NCBI GenBank assembly: GCA_934133175.1
Contig: CAKPAX010000002.1
Coordinates: 18,022-82,021, forward strand
Length of the DNA stretch: 64,000 bases
Direction: 5' to 3'
Source: an uncultured Clostridia bacterium
Lineage (GTDB): Bacteria; Bacillota; Clostridia; TANB77; CAG-508
Under the pieces are notes generated by a model. It made no database searches and had not been told where the DNA came from. It saw nothing but the letters and a program-made list of their open reading frames with translations. Both the position numbers and the translations under genes were made by a program. This document shows, piece after piece, positions 24,281 through 48,339 of the stretch. How positions within the stretch are numbered: the stretch's first letter is position 1; every line of letters begins with the position of its first letter.

Positions 24281-25828
24281 CTATTTTGCATAATCTATTA
24301 CTCTTGATTCTCTAATAACATTTACTTTTATTTGTCCTGGATAATCCATTTCATTTTCTACTTTTTTAGCTACTTCTCTGGCTAGTATAGTCATTTTATC
24401 ATCATTTATTTCGTCTGGTTTTACTATTATTCTTATTTCACGTCCAGCTTGTATTGCAAAAGATTTTTCAACTCCTTCAAAAGAATCTGCTATTTCTTCT
24501 AAGTTTTGTAATCTCTTAATATATGTTTCTAAAGTTTCTCTTCTAGCACCTGGTCTTGAAGCTGATATAGCATCTGCTGCTTGTACTAAAACAGCCTCCA
24601 ATGTTTGTGGTTCAACATCTCCATGGTGTGCTTCAACAGCATTTATTACTATTGGATTTTCTTTATACTTTTTAAGTATATCAACACCTATTTCTACGTG
24701 TGTTCCTTCCATATCATGATCTAATGCCTTTCCAATATCATGTAAAAGCCCAGCTCTTCTAGCTAATTTCGGATCTAATCCTAATTCTTCTGCCATAATT
24801 CTTGCTAAGTTTGATACTTCTATTGAATGATTTAAAACATTTTGTCCATAACTCGTCCTATACTTTAATTTACCAATTAATTTTATAACATCTGGATGTA
24901 AACCATTTACACCTGTTTCTAAAATAGCTCTTTCTCCTTCTGCTTTAATTGTTGCTTCCACTTCTTCTTTTGCTTTTTCTACCATTTCTTCTATTTTTGC
25001 AGGATGAATTCTTCCATCATCTATTAATTTTTCTAACGCAATTTTAGCAACTTCTCTTCTTAATGGATCAAAACCTGATAGAATTACAGCTTCTGGTGTA
25101 TCATCAATTATTAAATCTATTCCTGTAAGTGTTTCTAATGCTTTAATATTTCTACCTTCTCTACCAATAATTCTTCCTTTCATATCATCATTTGGAAGTG
25201 ATACTATTGATACAGTAGTTTCTTGTGAATGATCTGCTGCACATTTTTGAATTGCATATGTAATTAATTCTTTTGCATTTTTGCCAGCATCTTCTTTTGC
25301 TTTTTGATCTAAATCTCTAATAATAGCTGCTTTTTCACTTGTTATTTGTTTTTCAATTTCATCTAACAATCTTTCTTTTGCAGCTTCTTTTGTTAAGCCA
25401 GATATTCTTTGTAATTCTTCCATCTCTTTTTCATACAATGATTCTAATTCTTGACTTCTTGTATCAAGATCTTGTCTTGTTTGTTCTATTTGTCTTTCTT
25501 TTTTCTCAAAATTTTCAGAACGTCTTTCTAAATTTTCTTCTTTCTGAATTACTCTAGCTTCTTGTTTTTGTATTTCGCCTCTTCTTTCTTTAATCTCCTG
25601 ATCTAATTCTTTTCTACTACTCATGATTTCTTCTTTAGCCTTAAAAATTTCTTCTTTTTTCATATTTTCTGCTTCAATTTTAGCTAAATCGATTAATCTT
25701 TTAGCCTCTTGTTCAGCACTTTCTATTTTAGATTCAGCAATCTTTTTTCTTATTGTCATTCCTACTGGTATTCCTATTGCTAGTGAGATTAAGACAGTGG
25801 CAATTATGATTAAAATATTCATAATCAT
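24281..25828 (-). CDS. rny: Ribonuclease Y
   Basis: N-terminal TM segment, coiled coil, KH domain ([15 protein letters not shown]) and HD domain (LLHDIGKA). Confidence 0.9.
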
Positions 25829-26109
25829 ACACCTCTTTCTTATTAAATTTTCAATGTTCGAATAAATATATAAATTTAAAATTATTATTTTAATATATTT
25901 CTTCCTATTCTATTTTATATTTATTATTGTAAACTGTCAAGTATTTATTTAATATGAATTGTATTTTATTCAAATTTATTAACTTTTTCAATAATCTTAT
26001 TTGCAATAATATTTTTATTAAACTACAATACACATATTAAATTTTTAAACACTACCAAAGGAAATGTCATAAAAAACAACATTTCCCTCAGTAGTGTTTA
26101 AAAATCATT

Positions 26110-26481
26110 TCATGCGTTCATACTTTCTTTTGCAACTTTCAGTCTTGTGGCTGCTATTTTCTCTTCTTCTTTACTCAACTCACGACCAAGTTTAGGGCAA
26201 TAAAGTGGCTTGCGAATATTAGTCCATTCGCTAGGTCTCTCAAGAGATTCTTCAATTACTCCACCAACTTCAAGGCATACAGCCTTCATATCTCCATCCC
26301 TGAAATCATCATAAGGATCAGGATCGGGAAGTAATTTAAATGATATACATTGATCACAGTAGTCGTTGCCACCCATACCTTGAGTAGAATACTTTAATGC
26401 TCCGCCACTGTCAATAACAACGACATCAACACCAGCTTTTTCAAGTTCTTTAATTTCCCGCAGATCTTTTTCATTCAACAT
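26110..26481 (-). CDS. Hypothetical 123-aa protein with four Cys (CDQC...C...CP); compositionally foreign at about 40% GC
   Basis: Strong RBS AGGAGGAAAAGTGAATG. GC is 38-42% over 120 nt sampled against about 25% around it. Lies immediately downstream of the giant AAA+ gene. Confidence 0.45.
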   Translation of the reverse strand: MLNEKDLREIKELEKAGVDVVVIDSGGALKYSTQGMGGNDYCDQCISFKLLPDPDPYDDFRDGDMKAVCLEVGGVIEESLERPSEWTNIRKPLYCPKLGRELSKEEEKIAATRLKVAKESMNA

Positions 26482-26656
26482 TCACTTTTCCTCCTTAAAA
26501 TAATAATTTTACAATGTACGCTATATATCAAACTGTAAAACAGGATTAAAAAGAATTTAACATTAGTATTATATCATTTTTTATTATTTTTTTCAAGTTT
26601 TTCAGTATTTTGATTATATATGGTATGTGTCAACTAAATGTAAGCATTTTTTTATT

Positions 26657-29600
26657 CTACTTATTATTCATGATTTCAACAAATTGTTTTTCGTTAATTT
26701 CTTTATTTTTTAATAAATATTCAACTGCTTTTTCCGTTTTTCCTTTATTTTCTGTCAAAATTTTAATTGTTTTCTCATAACATTCTGAAAGAATTTTATT
26801 GGCTTCCTCATATATATATTTATCTATATTTTCTTCATAAGGAAATGTATATAATCCTAATTCTGACATACCATATTTTGTAATCATATTTCTTACCATT
26901 TTAGAAGCATTATTTAAATCAGTATTATTTCCAGACTCATGTTCACCTAAATAAACAATTTCATTACACATTCCACCTAAACAGCGACAAATCTTATTCA
27001 AATACTCTTGTCTACTTAAATTTTTTATTTTTTCATTATATCTAACATATCCCAATACGCCTCTGCCCTCAGCATTAATTGTTATTTTTTCTATTCCAGG
27101 ATTTTTTCCTAATATATAACTAATAGCTGCATGTCCAATTTCATGAATAGCTGTTCTTCTTTGAGATTCTTCATCTATTAAATCAGGATTTATCATATAT
27201 TCTCCTGTATATATATTTTTTATCATGTCTTGAATTGTTGGTATACATTCTTTTGTTATAGTTTTTATATCTCCTTTTTTAGTAGCTAATTTTAGCAATG
27301 TATTTTGTACAACTTTATCAACAAATCTTCCATTTCCTATGTTTTCTACATTACAGAAATACTTCATTAATCTTTTTAAATTTTCCTTTGCATCATCTTC
27401 TATTTGTAAGCCAATATCATGTATTTTTTTATAATATATTTCACAATATTCATCATCTGTATAATCAACAAAATTAAATGTATATCCAACTCTTGATGAA
27501 ATTCCTGGATTTATTTTTAAAAATTCACCCATTTCATTTTTATATCCAGCAAATACTACTACAAATTCACCTTTATGGTCTTCCATTGCTTTAATTAATG
27601 TTGCAATAGCTTCTGATCCAAAATCATATTGAGCATTATGTCCTTGAGCCAAACTATAAGCCTCGTCTATAAATAATACTCCTCCCATTGCTTTTTCAAT
27701 TACTTCTGCTGTTTTTATAGCTGTCTGCCCTACATATCCTGCAACCAAATCTTTTCTTTCTACTTCTATTAATTTATTTTCATGAATAATTCCAATATCA
27801 AATAAAACTTTAGCAATAATTCTTGCTACTGTTGTTTTACCTGTACCAGGATTGCCTGTAAAAATCATATGTAGATTTTGCCTAGGAATTACTAAATTTT
27901 GTTCTTCTGCTTTTTTAAAAAATTTTATATATTTTTCAAATTCAATAATTTTTTCTTTTATTTCTTTTAATCCAATCAAGTTATCAAGCATATCTTTTGC
28001 ATTATATTTAGAATAATTTGTATTATTTAGCTCTTCTATTGTTGGAATATCTTCTATTGTTATCATTTTTATATTTTTAGTTTCCCTTAAAGCATGTTTC
28101 ATAATTACTTCTTGTATCAATTTATCTACAAAACGCCCATTACCAAAATTTTTTTTACTACTATAATACTCAAAAATTTTTGATAAATCTTTATCTACTT
28201 TTGAGTTCATAGAATATCCCATATTATTCATCTTAAGCATAAACATTTGCTTAAGTTCATCCTCAGAGTAATCCTCAAAATTGAATGTATAACCTATTCT
28301 AGAAGAAATTCCCGGATTTATATCTAAAAATGTCTTCATTTCATCTTTATACCCAGCAAAAATAACAACAAAATTATTTTTATGGTCTTCCATTGCTTTA
28401 ATTAATGTTGCAATAGATTCTGATCCATAATCATTTTGAGAATTATGCCCTTGAGCCAAACTATAAGCCTCATCTATAAATAATACTCCTCCCATTGCTT
28501 TCTCAATTACTTCTGCCGTTTTTATAGCTGTCTGCCCTACATATCCTGCAACCAAATCTTTTCTTTCTACTTCTATTAATTTATTTTCATGAATAATTCC
28601 AATATCAAATAAAACTTTAGCAATAATTCTTGCTACTGTTGTTTTACCTGTACCAGGATTGCCTGTAAAAATCATATGTAGATTTTGCCTAGGAATTACT
28701 AAATTTTGTTCTTCTGCTTTTTTAAAAAATTTTATATATTTTTCAAATTCAATAATTTTTTCTTTTATTTCTTTTAATCCAATCAAGTTATCAAGCATAT
28801 CTTTTGCATTATATTTAGAATAATTTGTATTATTTAGCTCTTCTATTGTTGGAATATCTTCTATTGTTATCATTTTTATATTTTTAGTTTCCCTTAAAGC
28901 ATGTTTCATAATTACTTCTTGTATCAATTTATCTACAAAACGCCCATTACCAAAATTTTTTTTACTACTATAATACTCAAAAATTTTTGATAAATCTTTA
29001 TCTACTTTTGAGTTCATAGAATATCCCATATTATTCATCTTAAGCATAAACATTTGCTTAAGTTCATCCTCAGAGTAATCCTCAAAATTGAATGTATAAC
29101 CTATTCTAGAAGAAATTCCCGGATTTATATCTAAAAATGTCTTCATTTCATCTTTATACCCAGCAAAAATAACAACAAAATTATTTTTATGGTCTTCCAT
29201 TGCTTTAATTAATGTTGCAATAGATTCTGATCCATAATCATTTTGAGAATTATGCCCTTGAGCCAAACTATAAGCCTCATCTATAAATAATACTCCTCCC
29301 ATTGCTTTCTCAATTACTTCTGCCGTTTTTGGTGCTGTTTGTCCTATATATTCTGCAACTAGATCTTTTCTTTCTACTTCCACTAATTTATTTTCATAAA
29401 CCAATCCTAAATCATATAACATTTTTGCCATTATTCTTGCTACAGTTGTCTTTCCTGTACCAGGATTACCTGTAAAGATCATATGTAAATTAGATTCTGT
29501 AGTTTTTAATCCTAAGTTTTGGGCTTTTAATGTATATAATGCATATTTTTCAAATTTTTTTATATTATCTTTAACAGAATTTAATCCTATTATATTTTTT

Positions 29601-31372
29601 AGGCTTTCTTCTACTGTCTCTCTTTTATATATATTATCTGGAAAAATAAAACCTTTTTTACTAATACTATAATTAGATAAATATTTAGCTAATTCTTCAT
29701 TATAAAACGGAAAGAATTCTGCATTCATACTTACATATTCTATAAATTGTTCTTTTACTATTTTTCTAAGTTTTTGATTATTTCTCAATTTCATTGATAA
29801 CTCATTATTTAAGTTTTTGTAATATAACTCGAACAATTCGTCTATTGATAAGTTTGAGATTTTATATCTATTGTTTTGATATACAAACTTTATTTTTGTA
29901 TCTAATGATAATAATTCATCTACTGAATTTTTGTCAGATGCTATTATTACATAATCTTCATTAAATATTGATGTAATCAATTCTACTATTCTATTAACCC
30001 TTCTTAACTCTAGATATCTTGAAGTTCTTCCATTTTTAATTCTTCTATATTCATTAACAAATTCTTTTACATCTGTTAAAACATATAAATGTCTATCCAA
30101 AATTGAATTTTCTTCAACAGTCCATACATTAGTGCCAGGTTTTCCCTGTAATTCATAAGTATTTTCTAAAGCTAAATTATATAAACTCAAATACTCTGGT
30201 TCATCATTATCAATCTTTTTCCAAGCTTTTAATAATTTACAAATTTTATTAGCTAAATCAAACTTTCCACTTCCTCTATCTCCCTCTATAGAAATATGTA
30301 GACCGTTTTCTGTATTTACTTTATCAACTAATTCTTCAATGTTTTCAATTTTATTTCTGTATTCTAAAATTTTATTAATTTCTTGTATTCTGTCTTCTTT
30401 TTTCTTTTTCTCTATATTTTCAAATTGTTCTTCTTGTTTTTTTATACTCTGATTTTCTATTTCTTCTTGGTGCTCATTATAGTATTTTCTATCTTCTTCT
30501 ACCTTGCTCCATTGATTGCTTTTTTTCAAATAATAGAGATAACCTGCAACATCAAATATACAATATGGTCTAGTACAATTCCACCTATTACATTTATATA
30601 ATAACTCTTTCGTATTTCTATTAACATATATCCAATCACTTTCAGATATATATTTATATTTTAATACACTATTAACATCTTCATCATATCTAGTTTCATA
30701 TGCATTACAATTATATGGTAACCATATTTTAATATATTCTTTTTTTTCCTGTTCTACAAATACCATATCATTTTTTAACAATTCTAATGCTATATTAAAA
30801 GTTTTTTCAGGCACATTTTTTAATCCATCTTTAGGATTCCATTCAAAAGTAAAATAATCACTTTTAAAAACATTTCTTCTATATTCTTCTCTGTCTTTTA
30901 AAACATCTATTAGTAATCCTTTATTTTTTAAATATAATATATATCCAGCATAAAATTCAGGACATCTACTAAATTTACATTTAGCACAATTAACATTATT
31001 TTTATTTTCATATGCCTTAGGTGTAGTTGTAAATTTACTTTTTTTTGTTATACATTCACCATTTTCTATTTTGTTTTTTAATATTGTATCATCCACTTCT
31101 TTATCTCTTGTTTTGTAATCACATAAATTGTATATGTTATTTGAAATTTCAATTTTTTCTTTTTCATCTACTATAACTTTTTTTAAAGATATATCACCAT
31201 TAGCAAGAATTGCAATACACAATTTAATAAACTCAATAGAAGTAAATCTTAATCCATTAACTAAATTCCATTCAAAATCATAATCTACAACTTCTAAATT
31301 ATCTAATTTATTTATTTGGTTTATTATTTCCTTAGTTTCTTTTGAAAATTCATCACTTTTAACTTCACTCAT
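26657..31372 (-). CDS. 1571-aa soluble multi-AAA+ ATPase/FtsH-like protease: duplicated Cys-motif N-domain, one degenerate plus three intact SpoVK/CbbX-type AAA+ modules, C-terminal M41 zinc-metallopeptidase domain
   Basis: Three copies of GNPGTGKTTVARI Walker A with DEAY Walker B. An upstream module has the degenerate P-loop GDRGSGKF. The C-terminus has TAIHEIGHA (HExxH) and GNNTDLNNASKMVRNMITKYGMSELG matching the FtsH third-ligand region. No TM segments. Confidence 0.8.
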   Translation of the reverse strand: MSEVKSDEFSKETKEIINQINKLDNLEVVDYDFEWNLVNGLRFTSIEFIKLCIAILANGDISLKKVIVDEKEKIEISNNIYNLCDYKTRDKEVDDTILKNKIENGECITKKSKFTTTPKAYENKNNVNCAKCKFSRCPEFYAGYILYLKNKGLLIDVLKDREEYRRNVFKSDYFTFEWNPKDGLKNVPEKTFNIALELLKNDMVFVEQEKKEYIKIWLPYNCNAYETRYDEDVNSVLKYKYISESDWIYVNRNTKELLYKCNRWNCTRPYCIFDVAGYLYYLKKSNQWSKVEEDRKYYNEHQEEIENQSIKKQEEQFENIEKKKKEDRIQEINKILEYRNKIENIEELVDKVNTENGLHISIEGDRGSGKFDLANKICKLLKAWKKIDNDEPEYLSLYNLALENTYELQGKPGTNVWTVEENSILDRHLYVLTDVKEFVNEYRRIKNGRTSRYLELRRVNRIVELITSIFNEDYVIIASDKNSVDELLSLDTKIKFVYQNNRYKISNLSIDELFELYYKNLNNELSMKLRNNQKLRKIVKEQFIEYVSMNAEFFPFYNEELAKYLSNYSISKKGFIFPDNIYKRETVEESLKNIIGLNSVKDNIKKFEKYALYTLKAQNLGLKTTESNLHMIFTGNPGTGKTTVARIMAKMLYDLGLVYENKLVEVERKDLVAEYIGQTAPKTAEVIEKAMGGVLFIDEAYSLAQGHNSQNDYGSESIATLIKAMEDHKNNFVVIFAGYKDEMKTFLDINPGISSRIGYTFNFEDYSEDELKQMFMLKMNNMGYSMNSKVDKDLSKIFEYYSSKKNFGNGRFVDKLIQEVIMKHALRETKNIKMITIEDIPTIEELNNTNYSKYNAKDMLDNLIGLKEIKEKIIEFEKYIKFFKKAEEQNLVIPRQNLHMIFTGNPGTGKTTVARIIAKVLFDIGIIHENKLIEVERKDLVAGYVGQTAIKTAEVIEKAMGGVLFIDEAYSLAQGHNSQNDYGSESIATLIKAMEDHKNNFVVIFAGYKDEMKTFLDINPGISSRIGYTFNFEDYSEDELKQMFMLKMNNMGYSMNSKVDKDLSKIFEYYSSKKNFGNGRFVDKLIQEVIMKHALRETKNIKMITIEDIPTIEELNNTNYSKYNAKDMLDNLIGLKEIKEKIIEFEKYIKFFKKAEEQNLVIPRQNLHMIFTGNPGTGKTTVARIIAKVLFDIGIIHENKLIEVERKDLVAGYVGQTAIKTAEVIEKAMGGVLFIDEAYSLAQGHNAQYDFGSEAIATLIKAMEDHKGEFVVVFAGYKNEMGEFLKINPGISSRVGYTFNFVDYTDDEYCEIYYKKIHDIGLQIEDDAKENLKRLMKYFCNVENIGNGRFVDKVVQNTLLKLATKKGDIKTITKECIPTIQDMIKNIYTGEYMINPDLIDEESQRRTAIHEIGHAAISYILGKNPGIEKITINAEGRGVLGYVRYNEKIKNLSRQEYLNKICRCLGGMCNEIVYLGEHESGNNTDLNNASKMVRNMITKYGMSELGLYTFPYEENIDKYIYEEANKILSECYEKTIKILTENKGKTEKAVEYLLKNKEINEKQFVEIMNNK
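27583..30003. repeat. Three tandem in-frame 807-bp direct repeat units inside the giant gene. The middle unit is a mosaic: about 115 nt identical to one neighbour, about 690 nt identical to the other.
   Basis: The anchor ccattgctttaattaatgttgcaatag starts at 27583, 28390 and 29197, giving a period of 807 bp. Long stretches are 100% identical when read side by side. Confidence 0.85.
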
Positions 31373-31684
31373 TATTTTTCTCCTTTGATATTTTTATGAC
31401 ATAATAATTATATATAAAATAAAACAAAAAAGAAACCTCTTTCGAGGAAAAGAAATATTTTTCTTTTTAGTATAGGCTATTAACCTACACTGGCAGTCAG
31501 CACAGTAGGATTGACAACGCCATCTCCTTTATACCATACTGTTTGTTGTGTAAAACTCGGAGTTATTCTCACTATTTCCAGACCTGTGATAAGATATCTG
31601 CAGAACACCCATACATAAAGCTTGAATACCATTTGCATCTGCATAGAAAGATGCTATTTCTGAGTGAGATTTTGGTGTCTTTTC

Positions 31685-32017
31685 TTATTCTTTCTGTCTT
31701 GCTTCTTTATATTTCTTTTCCCAACCATCTTCAAACATTTTAAGAATGGTGTCAACTTGAGCATTTTTTGCATTGACAGAAATATAGACGCCGTTGAAAT
31801 CAAATTCAATAGCTTTCAAGCCATTAAGATTCGATTCCTCATCAAAACACCCTGCTACAATAGCAGCGATTTCCTGGATATTTCTTCCAGCCATGGAATT
31901 AATTACCATTACACCGTCATTAAGAGACTTTACTCTTAAAATCTTATTGTCACAAGTCCGAAAACAAAGAGAACCGTCGTGTGAAAAAACTTCCTGAATT
32001 CTAACCATTGTTGCCAT
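31685..32017 (-). CDS. Hypothetical 110-aa protein, compositionally foreign (about 37% GC). The frame reopens for 51 codons after a single TAA (31532-31684).
   Basis: Codon usage differs from the host (gacggt, cgg, ctg). The downstream continuation ...EKTPKSHSEIASFYADANGIQALCMGVLQISYHRSGNSENNSEFYTTNSMV reads like protein. Confidence 0.35.
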   Translation of the reverse strand: MATMVRIQEVFSHDGSLCFRTCDNKILRVKSLNDGVMVINSMAGRNIQEIAAIVAGCFDEESNLNGLKAIEFDFNGVYISVNAKNAQVDTILKMFEDGWEKKYKEARQKE

Positions 32018-32294
32018 AATAAATTCCTCCTTAATTTGTTGTTTTATTCTGTTAATATGGCTTGCTGACTTTCAAAGTCTACTATAAATATATTATATAA
32101 CAATTTTACATAAATTGCAAATATAACATACATTATGTATAAAAGAAAATAATTTCGTTCAATTTTAGTTATTATTTAATTATCTTTCAAACGCCATTCT
32201 TTCTTTTTGAATAGCAATTTTACAACAAAAAATACCATCCTTTTCAGAATGATATTTGTATCGTCTGTTCTATTAATTCGAACAGATCCGTTAT

Positions 32295-32378
32295 TGGTGC
32301 GGATGAGAGGACTCGAACCTCCACGCCGTTGGCACTGGTTCCTAAGACCAGCGCGTCTGCCAGTTCCGCCACATCCGC
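32295..32378 (-). tRNA. tRNA-Leu(UAG)
   Basis: Reverse complement folds as acceptor GCGGATG/CATCCGC, anticodon stem CTGGT/ACCAG with loop CTTAGGA (anticodon TAG), long variable arm, T-loop TTCGAGT, and encoded CCA. Confidence 0.8.
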
Positions 32379-32476: not shown

Positions 32477-32914
32477 TTAAAATTTATTACTTTTCACATC
32501 TTCTACGAATTTATCTCTAATTTCTGTTGGTAGAAGAGTTATTTTTTCTATATCTCTTCTGTCTATTATTTCTGGAATATATTGTCCTCTGTCTGCATAT
32601 TTAGGATCATTAGAAAATTCTGGTCCATCTCCTGTACCAAATTTTCCACCTATATATTTGCATAAATAAAAATATTCTTTTTTATTTACTTCACCATTTT
32701 CCAAACTATACAATTGTTTTACAACTTCTACATCTATTCCAAATTCTTCTTTTATTTCTCTTTTTGTTCCATCTTCTAATGTTTCATTACCTTCTCTTCC
32801 TCCTCCTGGGAAAGTATAATAATCCCCTATCGGATGATTTTTCACTCCAACTCTATGCATAAACGCAAATCCATTTTCTATTGGTAAAATACCAGCAACT
32901 CTTATTCTTTCCAT
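32477..32914 (-). CDS. NUDIX hydrolase
   Basis: Nudix box GGGREGNETLEDGTKREIKEEFGI. Confidence 0.8.
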   Translation of the reverse strand: MERIRVAGILPIENGFAFMHRVGVKNHPIGDYYTFPGGGREGNETLEDGTKREIKEEFGIDVEVVKQLYSLENGEVNKKEYFYLCKYIGGKFGTGDGPEFSNDPKYADRGQYIPEIIDRRDIEKITLLPTEIRDKFVEDVKSNKF

Positions 32915-47777: not shown

Positions 47778-48221
47778 TTACAGCTTGAATATGTAGATTT
47801 TAACTGCCTCCTCCTCATCTTTAATCGTTACCAGAAATCTTTCATCCTGTAACAGACTTATTCCAGAATGAGGATCGAGGTTTATCCAGTCTTCATTGTT
47901 ATAAACAATTTCGCCCATTAACTGATTAGGATTTATTACATCCACACAAGAAATTTTCTTTCCTATGTTTTCCAGGTAATTGCACTCCGGGATAAGACAT
48001 CTCAAATGAGATGCAATCTCAATTCCTAGAGATCCTGTTGATTCAGCTATTGCTGAAACCACATATGCCCCTGTGCTGTACGAAACCGAATCGGTTTCAT
48101 ATACCATGTAACCTATCCGATCTCCAAGAATCTCTAAAGCTCTTTTTCCTGCATCAGTTTTATGTTCGCACCATCCGAACGCGTTGTTTGGGCAATAGCC
48201 CAATTCTTCATATTTTGCCAT
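47778..48221 (-). CDS. Hypothetical 147-aa protein with Cys pairs (YCPNNAFGWCEH, CLIPEC), foreign composition (about 38-40% GC)
   Basis: AAGGAGG RBS 8 nt before the ATG of MAKYEEL; the track ORF starts 10 codons earlier. GC is well above the local background. Confidence 0.45.
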   Translation of the reverse strand: MAKYEELGYCPNNAFGWCEHKTDAGKRALEILGDRIGYMVYETDSVSYSTGAYVVSAIAESTGSLGIEIASHLRCLIPECNYLENIGKKISCVDVINPNQLMGEIVYNNEDWINLDPHSGISLLQDERFLVTIKDEEEAVKIYIFKL

Positions 48222-48339
48222 TTTTTTGTCCTCCTTATGTTTTTTATTCATTGCTTTAATGGCAATACAAGGTTTACGAGTTACTAGTTATATTATAGCA
48301 CTTTTTGTTTATGTAGTCAAATTATGTAAATTTTTTACT

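What the first reader, a model, noticed from the sequence alone, without database searches (positions are those of the whole stretch)
26041..32378. tRNA-Leu(UAG)-proximal block delimited by foreign-GC genes: candidate integrated island or novel locus
The giant AAA+/M41 gene sits between two small genes whose GC (about 37-42%) is far above the roughly 25% of the surrounding chromosome. The block ends at the 3' end of a tRNA-Leu gene (32295), the classic integration side for genomic islands. It begins right after the rny promoter region. Both outer ends carry GC-rich structured sequence: a 58-nt nested hairpin at 26041-26098, and a GC-rich 240-nt tail at 31440-31684 ending in a CCTC-gaaa-GAGG plus T-run terminator. 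No integrase or direct repeat of the tRNA 3' end was seen, so if this is an island it is degraded or was acquired by another route.
Basis: partly seen in the sequence, partly recalled or inferred. Interest (0 to 1): 0.65.

Follow-up and report, generated by a model that had tools for sequence, protein, structure and literature searches.

The report
Mosaic accessory islet beside tRNA-Leu
A 6.2-kb stretch between a tRNA-Leu gene and the RNase Y gene of an uncultured gut Clostridia bacterium is a species-specific patchwork of three separately acquired genes, one of them a decayed phage anti-immunity (Tad4-type) gene; it is a real but fairly ordinary genomic islet.

Summary
orf123 (39% GC, GC3 0.26) and orf110 (35% GC, GC3 0.29) are strong outliers in a 25.7% GC window whose median GC3 is 0.107. 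The hairpin, the GC-richer tail and the tRNA-Leu(UAG) are all present.

The closest related genome (flanks 94-97% identical) has mgtA-nudix-tRNA-Leu-rny but lacks window 25949-32240. It carries an unrelated 966-nt segment there. All conspecific contigs that were read carry the block.

The block is a mosaic of three separate transcription units, not one island:
- **orf110 plus the tail** are one decayed gene. Its family is an N-domain fused to the phage Thoeris inhibitor domain Tad4 (PF25186). The tail is the Tad4 C-terminal relic, with three in-frame stops and frameshifts, not a structured RNA.
- **The giant gene** is a multi-AAA+/M41 protease of native composition. Its only distant copy found lies beside recombinase-bearing prophage-like DNA.
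- **orf123** is a promoter-ORF-terminator cassette. It is GC-richer than every host examined and has short relatives in 56 viral contigs.

No integrase or att repeat remains. The tRNA-side boundary lies about 135 nt past the tRNA. tRNA-Leu is nonetheless a live attachment site in a conspecific strain. This is a known kind of feature, of moderate-low interest.

The parts
32295..32378 (-). tRNA-Leu(UAG). This native gene flanks the islet. It is a live attachment site in this clade.
   Evidence: ARAGORN and Rfam identify it (56.7 bits). Junctions with foreign DNA begin at the anticodon loop in the conspecific contig L086 and in related-species loci L203 and L212.
32161..32294 (-). Native tRNA-Leu trailer with two hairpins and a U-run. 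It is not part of the insertion.
   Evidence: Other species' loci L173, L194, L214 and L215 are 88-92% identical to the window from the tRNA down to 32161-32196. The first part of the trailer is conserved in 62 metagenome loci.
31685..32155 (-). orf110 module: a promoter-like site (32092-32121) plus a 110-aa ORF (31685-32017). The ORF is the N-terminal domain of a two-domain N-domain+Tad4 family and is cut short by a nonsense codon.
   Evidence: DNA is 92% identical to L096 over exactly 31700-32155. A profile search finds 160 representative clusters, and all nine two-domain long members scanned (a tenth, P0322, is cadherin-like without Tad4) carry a C-terminal Tad4 domain, PF25186. tblastn alignments of full-length homologues run through the stop codon ('QKE*EKTPK' against 'KTPE'). 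GC3 is 0.29. dN/dS against homologues is 0.24-0.43. The AF2 model has pLDDT 88 and no PDB fold match.
31483..31684 (-). Pseudogene relic of the C-terminal roughly 65 residues of a Tad4 (type I Thoeris inhibitor) domain.
   Evidence: tblastn of P0226 residues 227-263 matches window 31643-31533 (49% identity, three in-frame stops) and residues 264-280 match 31533-31483 (76% identity), combined E = 4.5e-10. The frameshift-corrected translation hits PF25186 at 39.3 bits (cut-off 25), E = 8.6e-10, covering profile positions 60-111 of 113. The same stops occur in conspecific contigs L081 and L086, and L221 is 98% identical there. There is no Rfam family and the fold z-score is only -1.9.
31421..31468 (-). 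Intrinsic terminator that ends the orf110/Tad4-relic transcription unit.
   Evidence: The MFE fold shows two adjacent hairpins, including CCUC-gaaa-GAGG, followed by a U-run.
26657..31372 (-). Giant 1571-aa gene. Its parts, in order: a Cys-rich repeated N-terminal region, a degenerate P-loop module (GDRGSGKF at residue 364), three SpoVK/CbbX-type AAA+ modules, and a C-terminal M41 metalloprotease (HEIGH at residue 1410). No transmembrane segment was detected.
   Evidence: Pfam finds AAA x3, AAA_lid_6 x3 and Peptidase_M41. NCBIfam matches spore_V_K and CbbX. GC is 24.9% and GC3 0.127, which is native-like. A copy 77-80% identical in nucleotides lies in IMG/VR contig L164 next to HTH_38, serine-recombinase fragments, RNase_T and KilA-N.
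27711..29330 (-). Exact 807-bp tandem duplication inside the giant gene, adding a third AAA+ module.
   Evidence: 813 nt are identical at a lag of 807 nt. Most conspecific proteins are 1302 aa with two modules; the 1571-aa form was seen on a single contig.
26036..26612 (-). orf123 cassette: promoter (26568-26596, 11 of 12 consensus positions plus TG), leader, a 123-aa ORF (26110-26481) with four invariant Cys, and a 31-bp-stem terminator hairpin (26036-26106).
   Evidence: DNA is 79% identical to L087-L089 over 26053-26612, covering hairpin, ORF and promoter. The homologues are solitary genes in variable, integrase-, toxin- and defence-rich contexts. They are 40-43% GC in hosts of 27-30% GC. 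Relatives of 64-81 aa occur in 56 viral contigs. Promoter evidence is and hairpin evidence.
25949..26035 (-). AT-rich spacer unique to the block. The rny-side junction lies at its lower end.
   Evidence: Alignment with L001: identity resumes at window 25948, just upstream of the rny -35 box at 25940.

Best explanation
Window about 25949-32160 is a species-specific accessory islet. It sits in a variable intergenic slot between the tRNA-Leu(UAG) trailer and the rny promoter.

It is a mosaic of three self-contained transcription units on the same strand, each derived from mobile-element gene pools:
1. A decayed phage-type anti-defence gene. Its ancestor was an N-domain fused to a Tad4 Thoeris-inhibitor domain. 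A nonsense codon, an internal deletion of about 95 codons, frameshifts and further stops have left a 110-aa N-domain ORF plus a non-coding Tad4 relic.
2. A giant cytosolic multi-AAA+/M41 protease whose number of AAA+ modules varies by tandem duplication.
3. A moron-like cassette (promoter, small Zn-binding-type ORF, strong hairpin terminator) whose core domain is widespread in phages.

Shown: the block is absent from the sister genome; it is present in all conspecific contigs that were read; the Tad4 homology is real; each module has independent homologues elsewhere; and no integrase or att repeats remain.

Inferred: the modules arrived by recombination with phage, prophage or other mobile DNA at a slot made recombination-prone by repeated prophage integration into the adjacent tRNA-Leu. 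The islet is now immobile. The three coding sequences show purifying selection in comparisons with their homologues. Their cellular roles are untested. The most likely roles are in phage-host conflict: the giant gene as a candidate defence or proteolytic effector, and the two small genes as former phage accessory or anti-defence proteins.
For: - Sister genome: L001 has flanks 94-97% identical to the window, but carries 966 unrelated nucleotides in place of 25949-32240.
- Fixation: every conspecific context read carries the block. That is the ten contexts shown for the exact nudix protein, the six shown for orf123, and L221.
- Absence elsewhere: none of 79 further related rny loci, and none of 61 other tRNA-Leu loci, carries any of the three genes.
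- Composition: GC3 is 0.26 and 0.29 against a median of 0.107 (robust sd 0.03), while recA and spoVS stay low.
- Tad4 relic: tblastn E = 4.5e-10 and Pfam 39.3 bits. All nine two-domain long family members scanned carry Tad4. The Tad4 domain is about 52% identical to proteins of 33 isolated phages.
- Module boundaries: independent homologies place them at 31700-32155, 26664-31354 and 26053-26612.
- Contexts of homologues: an orf110 homologue lies among Mob_Pre, TnpV and Bro-N genes. orf123 homologues lie next to integrase fragments, KAP NTPase, Fic, PemK and an Apyc1-like gene, and short relatives occur in 56 viral contigs. The giant's homologue lies beside serine-recombinase and KilA-N genes.
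- Live attachment site: tRNA-Leu anticodon-loop junctions occur in L086, L203 and L212.
- Selection: dN/dS is 0.19-0.43 for the three coding sequences.
Against: - Polarity is not proven. More distant relatives have no synteny at this locus, so no outgroup shows whether the window lineage gained the block or L001 lost or replaced it. L001's own segment also has atypical GC3 (0.255).
- The giant gene has native composition, so its foreign origin rests only on its patchy distribution and on one prophage-adjacent copy.
- No mobility gene or repeat links the block to any mechanism.
- The roles proposed for the giant gene and orf123 have no direct support. PADLOC hits are generic AAA+ matches only. 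Neither small protein has a significant PDB fold match; for orf123 a viral-library search also gave only one weak hit, to an uncharacterised phage protein.
Confidence: 0.7

Rival explanations
1. The block is ancestral to the window/L001 clade. L001 lost it by deletion or replacement, so nothing was inserted in the window lineage.
For: No outgroup with conserved synteny was found, so polarity is open. The giant gene has native GC and GC3. The block is present in every conspecific contig read. L001's substitute segment also looks foreign, with GC3 0.255.
Against: Two of the three modules have strongly atypical synonymous-site composition. One module is a relic of a phage-type gene. Each module has homologues in unrelated mobile contexts. 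Even if L001 lost the block, the block was foreign at an earlier date, so this rival changes the timing rather than the nature.
Confidence: 0.15
2. The block is a single classical genomic island or prophage remnant. It integrated as one unit by a tyrosine integrase into tRNA-Leu, and later lost its integrase and its distal att site.
For: It lies next to the 3' side of a tRNA gene that is demonstrably used as an attachment site in the same species (L086) and in relatives. The gene nearest the tRNA is a relic of a phage anti-defence gene.
Against: The proximal junction lies about 135 nt past the tRNA, beyond a trailer shared with other species, not inside the tRNA where the live elements cross over. 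There is no tRNA-fragment repeat or other direct repeat. The three modules differ in composition (GC3 0.29, 0.13 and 0.26) and have separate homologues that never co-occur.
Confidence: 0.1
3. The three genes form one functional system, for example an anti-phage defence operon in which the giant AAA+/M41 protease works with two small partner proteins.
For: All three lie on one strand and are fixed together in the species. The giant gene has weak matches to the defence ATPases IetA and TRIP13. Homologues of both small genes sit in defence- or anti-defence-rich neighbourhoods.
Against: orf123 homologues in L087-L093 and orf110 homologues in L094-L097 never have a giant AAA+/M41 neighbour. The giant's homologue in L164 has neither small gene. 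Each unit has its own promoter-like site and terminator. The unit next to the giant gene is partly a pseudogene. The PADLOC matches are generic AAA+ similarity, far below family thresholds.
Confidence: 0.05
4. The 245-nt GC-richer tail is a structured non-coding RNA (an sRNA or 3'-UTR element).
For: It is GC-richer than its surroundings (36.7%), sits between an ORF and a terminator, and has several predicted hairpins.
Against: There is no Rfam match at the gathering threshold or with a meaningful E-value. The folding z-score is only -1.9. The conservation with L094 follows a codon pattern, and the translated sequence matches the Tad4 domain.
Confidence: 0.03

Closest known systems
tRNA-adjacent genomic islets and integration hot spots (variable accessory regions next to tRNA genes)
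   Same: It is next to the 3' side of a tRNA gene. It is absent from the closest relative. Two of its three genes have atypical composition. It contains mobile-element remnants. The same tRNA is used as an attachment site by a prophage-like element in a conspecific strain.
   Different: It has no integrase and no att direct repeats. Its junction lies about 135 nt beyond the tRNA. Its content is three unrelated single-gene modules, not one element.
Tad4, phage type I Thoeris inhibitor (Pfam PF25186). It is reported to bind ThsB and block its TIR active site with a flexible loop (PMC13402655, citing Yirmiya et al., Cell 2025; bioRxiv 10.64898/2026.01.28.702374).
   Same: The corrected translation of 31483-31684 matches the C-terminal half of the Tad4 model above the Pfam cut-off. 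Full-length relatives of orf110 carry a complete Tad4 domain.
   Different: Here the domain is a relic. Its first roughly 50-60 positions are deleted and the rest is broken by three stops and by frameshifts. It follows an extra N-terminal domain that is absent from the Bacillus-phage Tad4 proteins. It lies in a bacterial chromosome.
Phage morons (autonomous promoter-ORF-terminator units with deviant composition)
   Same: The orf123 cassette has a near-consensus extended -10 promoter, a single small ORF and a very stable terminator hairpin. Its GC is well above every host examined. It sits in different neighbourhoods in different genomes.
   Different: Here and in L087-L093 it lies in chromosomal variable regions, not inside an identifiable prophage. 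The phage relatives are shorter (64-81 aa) and share only the Cys-rich core.
FtsH (AAA+ plus M41 protease) and the SpoVK/CbbX/EccA class of AAA+ ATPases
   Same: The giant protein has intact Walker A and B motifs with AAA_lid_6 lids of the SpoVK/CbbX type, and an M41 domain with the HEXXH motif.
   Different: It has three tandem AAA+ modules plus a degenerate fourth. It has no membrane anchor. It has a 350-aa Cys-rich N-terminal region of unknown fold. The number of modules varies from 1 to 3 between homologues.

Membership tests
Integrase-mediated tRNA-linked genomic island | Lies at the 3' side of a tRNA gene, with the junction inside or at the end of the tRNA | tested here: not met
   The block is adjacent to the tRNA. 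However, sequence shared with other species continues to 32161-32196, about 100-135 nt past the tRNA 3' end, and the orf110 module begins at 32155. Live elements cross over in the anticodon loop.
Integrase-mediated tRNA-linked genomic island | Integrase or recombinase gene | tested here: not met
   The only ORFs in 25949-32160 are orf123, the giant gene and orf110. None matches a recombinase in Pfam, NCBIfam or PHROGs.
Integrase-mediated tRNA-linked genomic island | Flanking direct repeats derived from the tRNA 3' part | tested here: not met
   There is no second match to the tRNA or its trailer in the window beyond chance 9-15-mers, and no direct repeat of 8 nt or more between the junction regions.
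Integrase-mediated tRNA-linked genomic island | Absent from close relatives, with atypical composition | tested here: met
   It is absent from L001. GC3 of orf123 and orf110 lies 5-6 robust sd above the median, although the giant gene is native-like.
Tad4 (PF25186) | Sequence match to the family model above the curated cut-off | tested here: met
   The frameshift-corrected translation of the tail scores 39.3 bits against a cut-off of 25 (E = 8.6e-10), but only over profile positions 60-111 of 113. An uncorrected tblastn with P0226 gives E = 4.5e-10.
Tad4 (PF25186) | Intact open reading frame covering the whole domain | tested here: not met
   There are three in-frame stops, at least two frame changes, and a deletion of the linker plus the first half of the domain. 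The same defects are seen in conspecific contigs.
Tad4 (PF25186) | Inhibition of ThsB/Thoeris | not testable with these tools
   This needs an experiment. Whether the host genome has a Thoeris system could not be checked outside the 64-kb window.
FtsH-family AAA+/M41 protease | AAA+ module followed by an M41 domain with an HEXXH zinc site | tested here: met
   PF00004 is found three times and PF01434 matches at 98.6 bits. The HEIGH motif is at residue 1410.
FtsH-family AAA+/M41 protease | N-terminal transmembrane anchor, single AAA+ module, and the FtsH equivalog score | tested here: not met
   The maximum 19-residue hydropathy is 1.39, so there is no transmembrane segment. There are three or four modules. 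TIGR01241 scores 116.8 bits against a cut-off of 600.
SpoVK/CbbX-class AAA+ | AAA plus AAA_lid_6 architecture, with a score above the NCBIfam cut-off | tested here: inconclusive
   TIGR02881 scores 755 bits against a cut-off of 423, and TIGR02880 scores 655 against 459. These scores are summed over three modules of a much larger fusion protein, so class resemblance is shown but orthology is not.
Phage moron | Own promoter, single ORF, own terminator, and composition unlike the surroundings | tested here: met
   The promoter matches 11 of 12 consensus positions with TG. The hairpin has z = -10.9. GC is 39% against 25.7% here, and 40-43% against 27-30% in six other hosts. DNA homology covers exactly promoter to terminator.
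Phage moron | Located within a phage or prophage genome | tested here: not met
   Here and in L087-L093 the cassette is chromosomal. Only shorter core-domain relatives lie in viral contigs. There is no match in isolated-phage or plasmid collections.
Integron gene cassette (attC) | Imperfect palindrome with extrahelical bases and R/L core sites, plus an integron integrase nearby | tested here: not met
   The hairpin pairs continuously over 31 bp with no bulges. The termini TTTAAAC and GTTTAAA do not fit the RYYYAAC / GTTRRRY core sites (read directly from the sequence; the consensus is from general knowledge). There is no integrase in the block.

The most novel reading that the evidence does not exclude
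The islet may be a fossil of phage-host conflict that still holds working parts. The orf110-type N-domain forms about 160 representative clusters. It occurs alone, in tandem, or fused to Tad4, and sometimes to other C-termini. It could be a new, independently acting anti-defence (or immunity-modulating) domain that the bacterium retained after the Tad4 half decayed. The neighbouring giant multi-AAA+/M41 protease, with its copy-number-variable ATPase modules, could be an undescribed anti-phage effector. The orf123 Cys4 family, with short relatives in many gut phages, could be a third uncharacterised conflict protein.
Probability: 0.2. Interest if true: 0.6.

Novelty: new member of a known kind. 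Interest (0 to 1): 0.35.

Why it matters
- It gives a clean, bounded example of how small accessory islets are assembled next to a tRNA attachment site in reduced, AT-rich gut Clostridia known only from metagenomes.
- It shows that compositional outliers at synonymous sites correctly flag foreign genes in such genomes.
- It exposes a Tad4-type Thoeris-inhibitor relic in a bacterial chromosome, together with an uncharacterised N-terminal domain family that is repeatedly fused to Tad4.
- That domain, the Cys4 orf123 family and the multi-AAA+/M41 protein are inexpensive candidates for defence and anti-defence screens.
- The islet itself is not a new kind of element.

Tried and rejected
- **Tail as a structured RNA.** Rfam at gathering and at E-value thresholds gave nothing relevant, and the fold z-score was -1.9. 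Rejected in favour of the Tad4 relic.
- **Tail as the continuation of a longer orf110.** P0177 (189 aa) was the model for this idea, but its C-terminus is unrelated to the tail.
- **att-type repeats.** No tRNA fragment or direct repeat was found at the block ends.
- **High expression as the cause of raised GC3.** Rejected: recA, spoVS, ackA-like and other native genes have GC3 of 0.07-0.13.
- **The window-type tRNA trailer as a phage attP footprint.** Rejected: the other species that share it (L194, L214) have, by inspection of their translations, housekeeping-looking genes downstream and no obvious integrase.
- **Integron attC reading of the hairpin.** Rejected: the stem is perfect, there are no core sites, and there is no integron integrase.
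- **Polarising gain against loss with an outgroup.** Failed. Loci L002-L080 and the P0045 nudix lineage have no synteny at this site.
- **Homologue search with the giant protein's N-terminal 597 aa.** It was swamped by low-complexity words and gave only 3 hits among 8000 candidates scored, so it says nothing about distribution. tblastn against isolated phages gave no match. Viral-contig scans found one contig only.
- **orf123 and the orf110 family in other collections.** orf123 had no match in isolated phages or plasmids. The orf110 family and P0226 were not found in viral contigs by pattern scan.
- **Family libraries.** Pfam, NCBIfam, PHROGs and PADLOC gave no family for orf123 or orf110. Pfam and PHROGs gave none for the phage mini-proteins.

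Full report
**Setting**

The window is 25.7% GC. Its genes match uncultured gut Clostridia genomes assembled from metagenomes; the best genome-collection hit is CAKPIA010000003 (locus L001), with RNase Y 96% identical.

On the minus strand the order is:
- nudix (32477-32914)
- tRNA-Leu(UAG) (32295-32378)
- orf110 (31685-32017)
- a 245-nt non-coding tail
- a 1571-aa gene (26657-31372)
- orf123 (26110-26481)
- rny (24281-25828)

**Checking the observation**

The composition claim holds, with slightly lower numbers than stated. orf123 is 39.2% GC, orf110 35.1% and the tail 36.7%, while the giant gene is 24.9%.

The signal is at synonymous sites. Among 52 non-overlapping ORFs the median GC3 is 0.107 with a robust sd of 0.03. 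Only orf123 (0.26), orf110 (0.29) and an unrelated ORF at 47781-48251 (0.357) exceed 0.2. recA (0.08) and spoVS (0.09) do not, so expression level is not the cause.

The hairpin after orf123 is a 31-bp stem at about 26036-26106, with free energy -37.5 kcal/mol and z = -10.9. The tail ends in two small hairpins and a U-run at 31421-31468. No integrase, no second tRNA fragment and no junction direct repeat exists in the window.

**Synteny test**

L001 matches the window at 94-97% nucleotide identity across mgtA, nudix and tRNA-Leu, and again from the rny promoter onward. Between window 32241 and 25948 it carries only 966 unrelated nucleotides, with one 136-aa lipoprotein-like ORF on the other strand. 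That ORF is itself compositionally atypical, with GC3 0.255.

Identity resumes 8 nt upstream of the rny -35 hexamer.

Every conspecific context that was read carries the block: six contexts of the exact orf123 protein, ten of the exact nudix protein, and metagenome locus L221.

None of 79 further rny loci from related species, and none of 61 other tRNA-Leu loci recovered with a trailer pattern, has any of the three genes. These more distant relatives share no synteny at this site, so gain in the window lineage cannot be formally separated from loss or replacement in L001.

**The block is three modules, not one island**

Independent DNA homologies delimit the modules:
- 31700-32155 is 92% identical to L096. 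This is orf110 plus its upstream region.
- 26664-31354 is 77-80% identical to L164. This is the giant coding sequence only.
- 26053-26612 is 79% identical to L087-L089. This covers the orf123 promoter, ORF and hairpin.

The homologues lie in unrelated contexts and never together.

The tRNA trailer down to 32161-32196 is shared with other species. The tRNA-side junction is therefore at about 32156-32161, roughly 135 nt past the tRNA.

**Module 1: orf110 and the tail**

orf110 has few close homologues, but a profile search finds 160 representative clusters. Many are stand-alone proteins of 95-140 aa. All nine two-domain long members that were scanned carry one or two orf110-like domains followed by a C-terminal Pfam Tad4 domain (PF25186, type I Thoeris inhibitor). 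A tenth long hit, the weak match P0322, is a cadherin-like protein without Tad4.

tblastn of these full-length proteins against the window gives two results:
- It aligns through the orf110 stop codon ('QKE*EKTPK' against the 'KTPE' linker motif).
- It places the last roughly 55 residues of Tad4 on the tail. P0226 residues 227-263 match 31643-31533 with three in-frame stops, and residues 264-280 match 31533-31483 at 76% identity, with a combined E of 4.5e-10.

Upstream of that, 'SEIASFYADANGIQ' lies in a different reading frame, which indicates a frameshift. The corrected translation scores 39.3 bits on PF25186 (cut-off 25) over profile positions 60-111 of 113.

The Tad4 domain of P0226 is about 52% identical to proteins of 33 isolated phages, mostly large Bacillus phages. 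According to the literature held here, Tad4 is a phage protein that binds ThsB and blocks its TIR active site (PMC13402655, citing Yirmiya et al., Cell 2025; bioRxiv 10.64898/2026.01.28.702374).

The tail is therefore a pseudogene relic, not a structured RNA. There is no Rfam hit and the fold z-score is -1.9. The same lesions are present in conspecific contigs.

The surviving N-domain ORF has dN/dS of 0.24-0.43 against homologues. Its AF2 model is confident (pLDDT 88) and has no PDB fold match. A distant homologue sits among Mob_Pre, TnpV and Bro-N genes.

**Module 2: the giant gene**

Its parts, in order:
- A Cys-rich, internally repeated N-terminal region.
- A degenerate P-loop (GDRGSGKF, residue 364).
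- Three SpoVK/CbbX-type AAA+ modules (GNPGTGKT and VLFIDE motifs).
- An M41 domain with HEIGH.
- No transmembrane segment.

The third AAA+ module comes from an exact 807-bp tandem duplication: 813 nt are identical at a lag of 807. Most conspecific proteins are 1302 aa with two modules, and a 53%-identical relative (P0183) has one canonical module.

Its composition is native-like. Its only non-conspecific full-length copy found lies at the edge of an IMG/VR contig next to HTH_38, serine-recombinase fragments, RNase_T and KilA-N genes. PADLOC matches (IetA, TRIP13) are generic AAA+ similarity.

**Module 3: orf123**

More than 130 homologue clusters at 55-79% identity share four invariant Cys residues and an LLPDPDPxDWFRDGDMKAVC core.

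In other genomes the gene is solitary, in variable regions with integrase fragments, Fic, KAP NTPase, SLFN/AlbA, PemK or an Apyc1-like gene. It is 40-43% GC in hosts of 27-30% GC.

Proteins of 64-81 aa with the same core occur in 56 viral contigs. The only fold match is an uncharacterised Myoviridae protein.

With a near-consensus extended -10 promoter and the strong terminator, the unit has the anatomy of a phage moron. dN/dS is 0.19-0.27.

**The tRNA as an attachment site**

In conspecific contig L086 the DNA upstream of orf110 keeps only the 3' 53 nt of tRNA-Leu, starting in the anticodon loop. In place of nudix and mgtA, that fragment is preceded by prophage-like genes: an HTH protein, a Panacea-domain protein and a C39/SH3 lysin-like protein. 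The same crossover point is seen in two related-species loci.

The slot is therefore repeatedly visited by integrating elements. This is a plausible, though inferred, source of the recombination that built the islet.

**Verdict**

This is a real, sharply bounded, species-specific mosaic islet of mobile-element origin. It has no remaining mobility functions. It is a new member of a known kind.

The points of interest are secondary: the Tad4 relic and its uncharacterised partner domain, the copy-number-variable multi-AAA+/M41 protein, and the phage-related Cys4 cassette.

Noticed in passing
window 27711-29330: There is an exact 807-bp tandem duplication inside the giant gene, giving a third AAA+ module (1571 aa). 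Most other conspecific proteins are 1302 aa, and a 53%-identical relative has a single canonical module. This could be recent module-number variation or an assembly artefact.
   Followed up: partly
window 47781-48251 (-): A 157-aa ORF with the highest GC3 in the window (0.357; GC 38%) and no Pfam family. It is followed by an unusually long intergenic region. It may be another foreign-composition gene.
   Followed up: no
L086:1-4998, L203, L212: Prophage-like elements are joined to the 3' half of tRNA-Leu(UAG), with the crossover in the anticodon loop. This is seen in one conspecific strain and in two related species.
   Followed up: partly
L001:8915-9880: The sister genome's replacement segment encodes a 136-aa lipoprotein-like ORF on the opposite strand. 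It has atypical GC3 (0.255), no Pfam family and no relative in any fetched locus.
   Followed up: partly
window 26490-26600; L092:9781-9892; L076:15178-15259: The orf123 promoter/leader region is about 76-77% similar to a second site in L092, just upstream of a different 259-aa gene, and to a site in L076. This may be a shared promoter or leader, or merely AT-rich resemblance.
   Followed up: no
window 31426-31468; L214:5213-5253; L004:8178-8222: The terminator after the Tad4 relic is 87-93% identical to short sequences in two other species' loci. It may be a recurrent terminator or a mini-repeat.
   Followed up: no
window 32161-32294 and L165-L226: The tRNA-Leu(UAG) trailer, with two hairpins and a U-run, is conserved across 62 metagenome loci of the clade in two main sequence variants. 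The window and L001 carry different variants, although their tRNAs are identical.
   Followed up: partly
L096:252-821 (P0177): An orf110 homologue is 92% identical in DNA up to 15 nt before the window's stop codon, then continues into an unrelated 80-aa C-terminus. The N-domain is therefore recombined with different C-terminal modules.
   Followed up: no
L092:4799-5575: One orf123 homologue lies 2.4 kb from a gene matching the anti-Pycsar Apyc1 family, and near a PemK-like toxin. This suggests an anti-defence or toxin-rich neighbourhood.
   Followed up: no
L214 (as oriented) 2294-2381 and 2721-2908: One related species has two tRNA-Leu-like copies about 430 nt apart.
   Followed up: no
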